Below, piece by piece: positions 56,572 through 59,475 of a stretch of DNA of 64,000 nt. The notes beneath the pieces are model-generated. The model ran no database searches. It saw only the letters and a list, made by a program, of their open reading frames with translations, and had not been told where the DNA came from. This stretch comes from an uncultured delta proteobacterium (GTDB lineage: Bacteria > Desulfobacterota > Binatia > UBA9968). Every line of letters begins with the position of its first letter. Position 1 is the first letter of the stretch. The position numbers and the translations under genes are program-made. The stretch is taken from contig CAVYTU010000015.1 in NCBI GenBank assembly GCA_963771465.1, forward strand, positions 992,001-1,056,000, in the 5' to 3' direction.

Positions 56572-56747
56572 CATTTGCGTTCAACCCCGGATTCCACCGT
56601 TGAAGTAATTGCATGCGCCGACCGAGGCGCGGTCCTGGAGTAGTGAAGACACCTAACGCCGCGGATACAGAGTCAGTTTGCGTGGTTGGCTAGTCGTTCC
56701 AAAGGCTACCAATGGTTGCTCGCTCGGCAACCATGTCGGTTGCCTGC

Positions 56748-57397
56748 TCATCTATGAAAGCTTTGTCAAGGTGGCTGTTAATTCCCGAATCGAGCACTCC
56801 TCGAATGTTTCTGAGTAAACCTATTCCCGTCGTCTGTCATTCTAACCCGATGGCGGCAAGGTGCGCTATGGGCGGGTGAGAAAGGACGTGAATCTTTATC
56901 TCAAGTGGGCCTTTACCGAGGCGGCCAACAGCGCGGTGCTCAACCGCGAGCGCTGTGATTACCGACACGTTGCCCGGCTGTATGAAAAACGTCAAAGCCA
57001 GACGGGGTCACGGCAAGGCGATTATCGCGGTAGCTCGCCACCTGGCCGAGGCCGCTTTTTGGATGTTGACAAAAGGAGAAAACTATCGCGAACCGATGTT
57101 ATCCACACAACGCTAAGCGCAGCCTGCTCATGGGTCCACTGAGACCCGCCCTCTGATTGCGACAGCGTCTCCGCTGCCACCGGGGTGCCGGGACTCCACT
57201 GCTTGGCAAAGTTTTTAATCGTTCCACGACGGTGCGCCAATTTACATTCCTAGACCTTGTGGCCTTGGTCGTTTTCCACTCGTGCCCAGGTGTAATGTTT
57301 GTGAACATCCAATGCGATATATTCCATTTGCGATTTCCTCCTCCAGCCGTCAGTCTATCTACCGACGCTGCGGATTTCATCGCTTTCATATTAATCA
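56748..57397 (-). mobile_element. Decayed IS110/IS1111-type element with internal deletion and inversion
   Basis: Transposase N-terminus MEYIALDVHKHYT (57327, minus, with a stop); C-terminus GGKVRYG...LKWAFTEAA...AVARHLA (56852-57116, plus, frameshifted); sub-terminal IRs TATGAAAGC/GCTTTCATA; TCA core at both ends. Confidence 0.85.
57118..57161 (+). ncRNA. Putative bridge/seekRNA target-binding loop of the IS
   Basis: CGCA[GCCTGCTCA]-GGGTC/GACCC hairpin-[CCTCTGA]TGCG; the two loop segments match the left and right flanks of the insertion site. Confidence 0.7.
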
Positions 57398-57488
57398 GAG
57401 GCACAGACCCATTGTCTTCACCACGGAAGGATCGCGCCTCGCTCCCTGTTTCAATTTTATCCGGGGAATCGGGCTAAACGAAAAACTT

Positions 57489-57526
57489 AAAAAAAGGGGC
57501 TCTCAGTTTCCCGAGCGCCCCTTTTT
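57489..57526 (-). terminator. Intrinsic terminator of groEL
   Basis: GGGGC.CTC...GAG.GCCCC stem flanked by A and T runs. Confidence 0.85.
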
Positions 57527-57547
57527 GCTCTGACGAACAATCGATGT

Positions 57548-59475
<1,928 letters not shown>

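What the first reader, a model, noticed from the sequence alone, without database searches (positions are those of the whole stretch)
57118..57161. Readable IS110/IS1111 bridge (seek) RNA target loop whose two guides match the element's own insertion site
Seen: right after the transposase stop is CGCA-[GCCTGCTCA]-T-GGGTC(CACTGA)GACCC-GC-[CCTCTGA]-T-TGCG. GCCTGCTCA equals the left flank plus core (56742-56750). CCTCTGA is the reverse complement of the core plus right flank, TCAGAGG (57395-57401). Removing the IS restores TGCCT-GCTCAG-AGGCA, a hairpin with the insertion in its loop. Known: IS110-family recombinases use ncRNA loops pairing with both target strands, and IS1111-type elements encode the RNA downstream of tnp. 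Inference: a new recombinase/RNA/target set specific for the repeat family described below.
Basis: partly seen in the sequence, partly recalled or inferred. Interest (0 to 1): 0.8.

Follow-up and report, generated by a model that had tools for sequence, protein, structure and literature searches.

The report
Guide loop of a dead IS1111-type element
The 44-base stretch is the target-reading loop of the guide RNA gene of an IS1111-type insertion sequence, and it spells out the site where the element sits, but this copy is a broken, internally scrambled fossil of an already known kind of RNA-guided mobile element.

Summary
Window 57118-57161 reads CGCA-GCCTGCTCA-T-hairpin-GC-CCTCTGA-T-TGCG, and both variable segments match the element's flanks. 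None of 100 shuffles of the window gave a match.

In 36 distinct guide pairs from relatives in many phyla, both loop strands covary with the flanks. Left: 124 of 144 positions. Right: 195 of 252. None of 10,000 permutations reached either value. The RNA fold shows compensatory changes in 15 of 22 pairs. Guide order, subterminal repeats and the long 3' non-coding region fit the IS1111 group.

Corrections:
- The window element (56751-57395) lies on the minus strand.
- The segment with the transposase C-terminus and the loop is inverted relative to the ends, and 663 bp are missing.
- Missing parts include most of the transposase and the whole donor-binding part of the RNA.
- In true orientation the 5' guide pairs with the top strand right of the cut, and the 3' guide pairs with the bottom strand left of it.
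- The core is the dinucleotide TG, not TCA.
- The genome's only other copy (contig C10) is full-length but also a pseudogene.

Verdict: a new, inactive member of a known kind, with intact relatives elsewhere. Interest is modest.

The parts
56614..56748 (.). Arm of one copy of a roughly 195-bp repeat family, the target element. On the element's strand this is the right flank. 56742-56748 = GCCTGCT, the reverse complement of AGCAGGC.
   Evidence: BLAST of an unoccupied copy (C15:882100-882360) against the genome: query 6-137 = window 56614-56750. About 22-25 copies in the genome.
56749..56750 (-). Core dinucleotide (CA on +, TG on the element's strand) next to the right end.
   Evidence: Only TG is shared by both junctions in relatives.
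56751..56852 (-). Right end of the element (102 bp), read on the minus strand. Subterminal inverted repeat TATGAAAGC at 56753-56761. The -35-like TTGACA (as TGTCAA) at 56764-56769.
   Evidence: 87% identical to C10:80144-80346 in reverse orientation. Sequence.
56851..57167 (+). Internal segment, inverted relative to both ends. It holds the transposase remnant of about codons 259-346 (frameshifted near 56985, TAA at 57114-57116) and the first part of the guide RNA gene.
   Evidence: 97% identical to C10:79779-80094 in forward orientation. tblastn with an intact relative. ORFs.
57104..57114 (+). 5' arm of the outer stem P1 of the RNA. It overlaps the end of the coding sequence.
   Evidence: Consensus structure of 50 relatives, columns 13-21 pairing with 78-87, with compensatory changes.
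57118..57121 (+). P2 stem, 5' strand (CGCA here; CGCG in all 50 aligned relatives).
57122..57130 (+). 5' guide GCCTGCTCA. It is the reverse complement of core TG plus AGCAGGC, the 7 bases right of the cut on the element's strand, so it would pair with the top strand.
   Evidence: 9 of 9 match to the flank in the window and in C10.
57132..57147 (+). P3 apical hairpin GGGTC-CACTGA-GACCC.
   Evidence: Five pairs, all with compensatory changes among relatives.
57150..57156 (+). 3' guide CCTCTG(A). It is identical to the left flank CCTC plus core TG on the element's strand, so it would pair with the bottom strand. The following A-T also matches the first bases of the left end.
57158..57161 (+). P2 stem, 3' strand (TGCG).
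57164..57167 (+). Remnant (4 of 9 positions) of the 3' arm of P1. The inversion breakpoint lies at 57167. Everything downstream in the RNA gene, including the donor loop, is absent.
   Evidence: The nhmmer profile of the RNA matches only columns 2-76 here, against 2-153 in C10.
57168..57395 (-). Left end (68-nt leader, subterminal repeat at 57382-57390) and transposase codons 1-54. ATG at 57327-57325, premature TAG at 57252-57250.
   Evidence: 97% identical to C10:78854-79164 in reverse orientation. Sequence. tblastn.
57396..57397 (-). Core dinucleotide copy next to the left end.
57398..57475 (.). Other arm of the same repeat copy. On the element's strand this is the left flank. 57398-57401 = GAGG, the reverse complement of CCTC.

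Best explanation
Window 57118-57161 is the DNA copy of the target-binding internal loop of an IS1111-group guide RNA (called seekRNA or bridge RNA). It is preserved inside a dead, rearranged insertion sequence.

How the working ancestor is inferred to act:
1. It is a 1.31-kb element like the C10 copy. The excised circle joins the right end to the left end and creates the promoter TTGACA-17 nt-TAATAT. This promoter would transcribe the 346-aa DEDD/serine recombinase and the roughly 200-nt 3' non-coding region.
2. That region folds into P1, P2, an internal loop and the P3 hairpin. [quoted passage not shown] 3. A second loop further downstream carries AUAGAUG, identical to the last five bases of the right end plus the core, and recognises the donor junction.
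4. The recombinase exchanges strands at TG. The element enters a small hairpin inside a roughly 195-bp repeat.

Later history of the window copy: an inversion, and a 663-bp deletion across one inversion junction, removed most of the recombinase gene and the donor loop. The target loop remained readable.

Shown here: the sequence matches, the covariation of guides with flanks, the covariation within the RNA fold, the family membership of the protein, and the rearrangement.

Inferred from the studied relatives IS621 and ISEc11: transcription, RNA-protein binding, base pairing with DNA, and strand exchange.
For: The match is not chance: 1 hit in the window, 0 of 100 shuffles with any hit.

The full-length copy at C10 (L001 337-1647) has the same guides and the same flanks, CCTC-TG | element | TG-AGCAGGC.

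Relatives came from two scans: 27 loci and 80 loci. Of 72 parsed locus entries, 44 were non-redundant with both flanks, giving 36 distinct guide pairs.
- 3' guide against left flank: 124 of 144 positions match. Permuted pairings: mean 38.7, sd 6.6, maximum 67.
- 5' guide against right flank: 195 of 252 match. Permuted: mean 110.5, sd 6.7, maximum 137.
- None of 10,000 permutations reached either observed value.
- 26 of 36 pairs match 4 of 4 on the left. 9 of 36 match 7 of 7 on the right.

Within the window's own subclade (at least 70% amino-acid identity to the query), five different 3' guides each match their own left flank 4 of 4: CCTC, ATTC, ATGC, AACC and ATCC.

The core also covaries. L193 has CG at both junctions and in both the 3' target guide and the 3' donor guide.

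RNA fold: 22 consensus pairs in 50 sequences, 15 of them with compensatory changes.

Donor guide: 229 of 231 positions equal the right end plus core in 33 distinct combinations. Permuted mean 197.7; 0 of 10,000 reached the observed value.

Protein of intact relatives:
- Pfam PF01548 and PF02371.
- NCBIfam NF033542, 'IS110 family RNA-guided transposase', 232.5 bits against a cut-off of 140.
- IS621 transposase structure 8wt6, E = 2e-11.

The guide order, with the top-strand match 5' of the bottom-strand match, is the order reported for IS1111-type seekRNAs (PMC11187229, section 9 and abstract, read).

The rearranged structure is not an artefact of this assembly. A 591-nt contig of run X2 covers 56733-57323 with no differences, bridging 56751, 56851 and 57167.
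Against: No RNA evidence. Metatranscriptome contigs of X8 cover the stretch, but contigs cannot show transcription and may be DNA.

Rfam 15 has no matching family, either for the window or for an intact relative. Identification of the RNA therefore rests on my own alignment.

Right-side matches are imperfect in many relatives. 7 of 36 have fewer than 5 of 7. The intact copies L149, L150 and L156 match the left flank 4 of 4, but the right flank less well (4 of 7 scored for L149; 6-7 of 9 guide bases for the three by eye).

A few relatives match poorly on the left: L168 and L217 1 of 4, L218 0 of 4.

The permutation control ignores relatedness among elements.

About 22 of the 80 loci gave no loop parse and were not examined. 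Causes could be contig ends or divergence.

In the window's subclade, the 5' strand of the donor loop shows no complementarity to the left end: 0-2 of 7.

Pfam finds nothing in the window's own protein fragments. Their identity rests on 97% DNA identity to C10 and on tblastn.
Confidence: 0.9

Rival explanations
1. The loop is a working trans-acting or decoy RNA in this genome. The truncated RNA gene would still be transcribed and would guide or titrate a recombinase made elsewhere.
For: The loop, P2 and P3 are intact in the window. Metatranscriptome contigs of X8 cover the region. Both copies share the same nonsense codon, so at least one of them was probably moved in trans at some time.
Against: tblastn finds no other relative of this recombinase in the 6.9-Mb assembly. 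Only the C10 pseudogene and the window fragments were found. The 3' arm of P1 and the whole donor loop are missing. The circle-junction promoter cannot form. Contigs cannot show transcription. The assembly may be incomplete (19 contigs).
Confidence: 0.04
2. The match is a by-product, not a guide. The segment would be a captured or duplicated piece of the target hairpin, or a post-gene hairpin such as a terminator, and the protein alone would recognise the target's sequence or structure.
For: The target is itself a small hairpin. A 2026 preprint abstract reports that an IS110 element also reads target structure (10.64898/2026.03.19.712850; search listing and abstract only).
Against: The two segments are not a copy of the target. 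One is in sense and the other in antisense, they are separated by a conserved hairpin, and this same arrangement recurs with different sequences in 36 guide pairs that track their own flanks. P3 is not followed by a run of T. Structure recognition could add to RNA guiding but does not replace it.
Confidence: 0.03
3. The internal inversion was made by the element's own recombinase acting on pseudo-sites inside the element, not by illegitimate recombination.
For: Bridge recombinases can invert DNA (PMC11208160, passages read). One breakpoint lies right after the target loop, next to a CTGT motif. The reverse complement of the other breakpoint also has CTGT (by eye).
Against: A precise exchange at a TG core would give ...GCGCTGTCTCC.... 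The window reads ...GCG|TCTCC..., which lacks three bases and shows only one base of overlap. Neither breakpoint resembles the target or the donor site. The second junction is lost in the deletion.
Confidence: 0.05

Closest known systems
IS1111-group elements with a seekRNA: ISEc11, ISKpn4, ISPa11, ISPst6 (Siddiquee et al. 2024, PMC11187229; abstract and sections 6, 9, 10, 13, 14 read)
   Same: Subterminal inverted repeats. A long non-coding region downstream of the transposase gene. A transposase of 330-350 aa with the motif GL-P----SG. [quoted passage not shown] Natural retargeting between close relatives.
   Different: The protein is distant. The named IS1111-group relatives found on plasmids, IS4321 and IS5075, are 22% identical over 97% of the length, and the best plasmid hit of any kind is 33%. 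The target is different: a hairpin in a roughly 195-bp repeat. The window copy is non-functional. I could not compare RNA sequences, because those of the paper are in figures.
IS621 bridge RNA and recombinase, IS110 group (Durrant et al. 2024, PMC11208160, passages read; structure 8wt6)
   Same: One RNA with a target loop followed by a donor loop. Each loop strand pairs with one DNA strand and both include a dinucleotide core. The 5' strand is about 9 nt and the 3' strand 4-7 nt. The protein fold family is related (E = 2e-11 over the C-terminal domain).
   Different: [quoted passage not shown] The core is CT in IS621 (recalled, not from a call) and TG here.
REP-targeting IS110-family elements of Pseudomonas putida: ISPpu9 (PMC12288879) and ISPpu10 (10.64898/2026.03.19.712850). 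Search listings and abstracts only.
   Same: Insertion into short palindromic repeats that occur many times in the genome. A small RNA gene downstream of the transposase in ISPpu9.
   Different: Different hosts and sequences. I made no sequence comparison.

Membership tests
IS110 family RNA-guided transposase (NCBIfam NF033542; Pfam PF01548 + PF02371) | Protein matches the family models above their cut-offs | tested here: met
   Intact relative L008: NF033542 232.5 bits (cut-off 140); PF01548 41 bits and PF02371 75.9 bits. C10 pseudogene fragment: NF033542 153.6 bits, PF02371 77.3 bits. The window's own fragments gave no Pfam hit, but they are 97% identical in DNA to C10 and match by tblastn.
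IS1111 group | Subterminal inverted repeats of 7-17 bp | tested here: met
   TATGAAAGC and GCTTTCATA lie 5 and 2 bases from the ends, in the window, in C10 and in relatives.
IS1111 group | Long non-coding region downstream of the transposase gene, with a short left end | tested here: met
   C10 copy: 68-nt leader (L001 337-404) and about 203 nt after the stop position (L001 1445-1647).
IS1111 group | Transposase of 330-350 aa with the motif GL-P----S/T-G | tested here: met
   346 aa in L007, L008, L009, L011, L013 and L014. GLVPRENSSG or GLVAREHSSG is seen in the translations. The criterion comes from PMC11187229, section 6.
IS1111 group | Clusters with IS1111 in a transposase tree | not tested
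   No reference set of ISfinder proteins was at hand. Only pairwise identity to IS4321 and IS5075 (22%) was obtained.
seekRNA / bridge RNA | Two loop segments complementary to opposite strands of the target, overlapping at the core | tested here: met
   9 of 9 and 7 of 7 in the window and in C10.
seekRNA / bridge RNA | Guides covary with targets across relatives | tested here: met
   124 of 144 and 195 of 252 positions. None of 10,000 permutations reached either value.
seekRNA / bridge RNA | Conserved secondary structure that presents the guides in an internal loop | tested here: met
   22 pairs, 15 of them with compensatory changes, in 50 sequences.
seekRNA / bridge RNA | Donor-binding loop matching the element's joined ends | tested here: inconclusive
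   The 3' strand matches the right end plus core at 229 of 231 positions. The 5' strand matches at 140 of 231 overall, but at only 0-2 of 7 in the window's subclade. This loop is deleted from the window copy.
seekRNA / bridge RNA | RNA is made, binds the recombinase and is required for transposition | not testable with these tools
   Only contigs of one metatranscriptome were laid, and these cannot show transcription.
Active insertion sequence in this genome | Intact transposase gene and complete ends and RNA gene | tested here: not met
   Window: 663 bp missing, an inversion, a TAG at codon 26 and a frameshift. C10: a TAG at codon 26, a frameshift, and the stop codon changed. No other copy was found.

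The most novel reading that the evidence does not exclude
The window's fossil marks a large, uncharacterised clade of IS1111-type elements found in soil and sediment phyla (Binatia, Nitrospirota, Chloroflexota, Planctomycetota, Spirochaetota and others). The clade is at most 33% identical to any plasmid-borne relative and 22% identical to IS4321 and IS5075. It has compact 346-aa recombinases and a very regular guide RNA whose code can be read directly from sequence: 7+2 bases on one strand and 4+2 on the other, with a TG core. In the window's own subclade the donor loop lacks a readable second guide. That would mean the left end is recognised in another way, for example the subterminal repeat being read by the protein. 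This would be a variant of the bridge mechanism.
Probability: 0.2. Interest if true: 0.5.

Novelty: new member of a known kind. Interest (0 to 1): 0.3.

Why it matters
It shows that the target code of an IS1111-type guide RNA can be read from raw sequence, even in a degraded copy, and that it predicts the insertion site base for base. It also gives a curated set for further work: 36 natural guide/target pairs, a consensus RNA fold, and intact 346-aa recombinases in relatives. This clade is far from the ones studied so far. The set could be used to study how these systems retarget in nature, or as extra candidates for programmable recombinases. For this genome it is ordinary annotation: two dead copies of one insertion sequence inside a repeat family.

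Tried and rejected
- Rfam 15 scans of the window region and of an intact relative's non-coding region gave only weak, unrelated hits.
- Pfam on the window's four protein fragments gave nothing.
- A 15-base DNA pattern scan of genome contigs was too unspecific. Only 2 of the loci held carried the RNA, and both were already known. That scan was wasted.
- My first automatic search for terminal inverted repeats was misled by palindromic targets. I replaced it with a motif-anchored parse.
- My first regular expression for the donor loop failed. I replaced it with alignment columns.
- I looked for a second donor guide in the window's subclade in several registers by eye and found none.
- I tested whether the inversion junction fits a precise exchange at a TG core. 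It does not.
- The search of earlier findings returned nothing for this place.
- The metatranscriptome run X8 holds contigs over the stretch. This is no evidence of transcription.
- I did not use the large protein searches, structure prediction or complex prediction. The family assignment was already clear.

Full report
THE OBSERVATION

One search shows that window 57118-57161 reads CGCA-GCCTGCTCA-T-GGGTC(CACTGA)GACCC-GC-CCTCTGA-T-TGCG. It begins two bases after a TAA at 57114-57116. GCCTGCTCA recurs at 56742-56750. The reverse complement of CCTCTGA, TCAGAGG, stands at 57395-57401. The composite pattern occurs once in the window and in none of 100 dinucleotide-preserving shuffles.

WHAT SURROUNDS IT

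BLAST of 56650-57480 against the window's own genome (6.9 Mb, 19 contigs, laid) gave two kinds of match.

First, the outer parts (56650-56750 and 57395-57475) belong to a repeat family. Elsewhere the two halves are contiguous and overlap by three bases.

Second, the inner part matches one other place, contig C10, in three blocks with different orientations:
- Window 57167-57477 = C10 79164-78854, reversed, 97% identical.
- Window 56851-57167 = C10 79779-80094, forward, 97% identical.
- Window 56650-56852 = C10 80346-80144, reversed, 87% identical.

The C10 locus (L001) is a full-length element of 1311 bp plus the core (L001 337-1647). Its parts in order are:
- a 68-nt leader;
- a transposase reading frame;
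- the loop;
- about 150 more non-coding bases;
- the right end.

So the window element as a whole lies on the minus strand. Its right end is at 56751-56852. Its left end plus codons 1-54 are at 57395-57168.

The middle piece, 56851-57167, carries the transposase C-terminus and the loop. It is inverted relative to both ends. L001 566-1179 and 1496-1544 (663 bp in all) are missing. One inversion followed by one deletion across one inversion junction explains this arrangement.

The surviving junction at 57167 shows a single base of overlap. It does not fit a precise exchange at a TG core (by eye).

The structure is not an artefact of this assembly. A 591-nt contig of the coded groundwater run X2 covers 56733-57323 without a difference and bridges 56751, 56851 and 57167. 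Loose ends in X3 and X5 at 56851 and 57167 continue as the full-length form does. I left the best holder, X1, out because it may be the source. The laid runs X2, X3 and X5 belong to studies other than X1's, but they may still not be fully independent.

BOTH COPIES ARE DEAD

Both share a TAG at codon 26 (window 57252-57250; L001 480-482). C10 also has a frameshift, and its stop codon is changed. The window copy has a further frameshift near 56985 and keeps only about codons 1-54 and 259-346.

tblastn with an intact relative finds no other copy in the genome. A profile of the RNA finds only these two places. In the window it matches only alignment columns 2-76, which is the target loop without the rest.

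RELATIVES

A protein scan of one genome per species gave 27 loci. A scan with an alignment of five intact proteins gave 80 loci, 49-100% identical to the query. They come from MAGs labelled Binatia or 'delta proteobacterium', Nitrospirota, Chloroflexota, Planctomycetota, Spirochaetota, Thermotogae, Rokubacteria and others.

Intact 346-aa proteins exist in L007, L008, L014, L013, L009 and L011; L016 holds an intact 356-aa protein. They match:
- Pfam PF01548 and PF02371;
- NCBIfam NF033542, 'IS110 family RNA-guided transposase', at 232.5 bits against a cut-off of 140;
- the IS621 transposase structure 8wt6 at E = 2e-11.

In the plasmid collection the best hit is 33% identical. The named IS1111-group elements IS4321 and IS5075 are 22% identical over 97% of the length. 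The clade is therefore far from the studied members.

THE RNA

Directly after the stop codon, all parsed relatives carry the same architecture:
- an outer stem P1, whose 5' arm lies in the last codons;
- AAG;
- an invariant stem CGCG/UGCG (P2);
- a variable 5' strand of about nine bases;
- U;
- a 5-bp hairpin (P3);
- G plus one base;
- a variable 3' strand ending in TGA;
- U, then the other strand of P2;
- ACA, then the other arm of P1;
- a spacer;
- a second hairpin (GCCGC/GGCG);
- GAA plus a seven-base segment;
- a third hairpin.

RNAalifold on 50 distinct sequences predicts 22 pairs. Fifteen of them show compensatory changes, among them nearly all of P1 and all of P3.

Rfam 15 has no family for this RNA, either in the window or in an intact relative.

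DO THE GUIDES TRACK THE TARGETS?

I located the ends independently of the loop, by the subterminal repeat motifs. The left end reads TG-A-T-x-x-TATGAAAGC. The right end reads GCTTTCA[G/T]A-xx-TG.

Of 72 parsed locus entries, some fetched twice, 44 were non-redundant and had both flanks. They gave 36 distinct guide pairs, and I used the first locus of each.
- The first four bases of the 3' strand equal the four bases left of TG at 124 of 144 positions. Permuted pairings: mean 38.7, sd 6.6, maximum 67.
- The seven bases of the 5' strand before CA are the reverse complement of the seven bases right of TG at 195 of 252 positions. Permuted: mean 110.5, sd 6.7, maximum 137. Three registers were allowed for real and permuted pairs alike.
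- None of 10,000 permutations reached either value.
- 26 of 36 pairs match 4 of 4 on the left. 9 of 36 match 7 of 7 on the right. 29 of 36 match at least 5 of 7 on the right.

Within the window's own subclade, five different 3' guides each match their own flank 4 of 4: CCTC, ATTC, ATGC, AACC and ATCC.

The core covaries too. L193 has CG at both junctions and CG in both 3' guides, while its near twin L194 has TG throughout.

In L160 and L011 the right flank starts with G, and the 5' guide ends CCA instead of TCA. This shows that only TG is duplicated.

Results against the reading:
- Right-side matches are often imperfect. The intact copies L149, L150 and L156 score low there (4 of 7 for L149; 6-7 of 9 guide bases for the three by eye).
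- Three relatives match 0-1 of 4 on the left (L168, L217, L218).
- The permutation ignores relatedness among elements.
- About 22 of the 80 loci gave no parse and were not examined.

ORIENTATION AND FAMILY

In the full-length copy, the 5' strand pairs with the top strand to the right of the cut. The 3' strand pairs with the bottom strand to the left. The two matches overlap at the core.

Siddiquee et al. (PMC11187229; abstract and sections 6, 9, 10, 13, 14 read) report that IS1111-type seekRNAs carry the top-strand match 5' of the bottom-strand match, and that IS110-type RNAs have the reverse order.

Durrant et al. [quoted passage not shown]

The element also meets the other IS1111 criteria of those papers:
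- 9-bp subterminal repeats;
- a short left end and a long right non-coding region;
- 346 aa;
- the motif GL-P----SG.

That is an effect of the inversion.

DONOR SIDE

The seven-base segment after the second hairpin equals the last five bases of the right end plus the core at 229 of 231 positions, in 33 distinct combinations. Permuted mean 197.7; 0 of 10,000 reached the observed value. It follows every variant of the end: ATAGA, AGAGA, AGATA, AGAAT and AGATT. It also follows the CG core.

The strand before that hairpin is complementary to the core plus the first bases of the left end at 5-7 of 7 positions in most clades. In the window's subclade it matches only 0-2 of 7. I have no explanation for that. 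All of this part is deleted in the window.

By eye, joining the ends of the C10 copy gives TTGACA-17 nt-TAATAT (L001 1629-1634 and 339-344). This is the kind of circle-junction promoter that Siddiquee et al. mention in their discussion for these families.

THE TARGET

The flanking repeat is about 195 bp long, with terminal inverted repeats of roughly 35 bp. It has about 22-25 copies, 72-85% identical. As DNA it folds into one long hairpin.

Twenty-one unoccupied copies align across the site. Their consensus, TTGCCTGCTCAGAGGCACAGGCC, equals the guide pair. Three copies hold the perfect 13-mer, and 15 places in the genome hold it with at most one mismatch.

Two copies of the family are occupied, in the window and in C10, at the same position. 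The site lies in a weak hairpin of -4 to -6 kcal/mol.

VERDICT

The guide/target logic is supported by covariation in relatives.

It belongs to a known kind of system described in 2024. In this genome it is a fossil without a recombinase, without the donor half of its RNA, and with its middle inverted.

What is new is modest: an unstudied and widespread clade, a unique natural guide pair aimed at a repeat of this genome, and a clean set of natural retargeting examples.

Noticed in passing
window 56614-56750 + 57396-57475; about 22-25 further copies in the genome, e.g. G000 C13:270532-270718 and C15:882100-882300: A roughly 195-bp repeat family with terminal inverted repeats of roughly 35 bp, 72-85% identical between copies. 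It folds as one long hairpin (-43 kcal/mol as DNA) and looks like a miniature non-autonomous element. Its origin and any parent element are unknown.
   Followed up: partly
L183, L188, L207 (relatives; left flank ...GGGTTCGAATCCCGT|TG): One subclade of the relatives has guides aimed at a sequence that looks like the T-arm and 3' end of a tRNA gene, read by eye from the flank printed. It was not checked with a tRNA finder.
   Followed up: no
L193 and L194 (relatives): Two near-identical elements differ in the core dinucleotide (CG against TG), with matching changes in both RNA loops and both junctions. Their target, ACTCGGTC-YG-GACCGAGT, is a perfect palindrome.
   Followed up: partly
window 57252-57250 and L001 480-482: Both copies in the genome share the same premature TAG at codon 26. 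So either a defective copy was moved in trans by a recombinase gene that is now absent, or the mutation spread by gene conversion.
   Followed up: no
L001 1442-1444 against window 57114-57116: In the C10 copy the transposase stop codon TAA is changed to TCA, and the base closing stem P2 is G (G-U pair). In the window it is A (A-U pair).
   Followed up: no
alignment A2 columns 88-100 (relatives L001, L149-L166, L011): In the Binatia/Nitrospirota subclade, the strand before the second hairpin ends in a conserved TCTC-T. It shows no complementarity to the left end, unlike the other clades, which end in ATCA-T.
   Followed up: partly
window 57483-57540 (minus strand): A GC-rich hairpin followed by a run of T lies downstream of the groEL-like gene (57548-59170, minus strand). 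It looks like an intrinsic terminator, and it drew the weak Rfam hits BjrC68 and STnc320.
   Followed up: no
(run search): Near-identical copies of the 901-bp stretch, including the rearranged element, are held by soil, rhizosphere and groundwater metagenomes of 15 studies. The host lineage therefore seems widespread in soils.
   Followed up: partly
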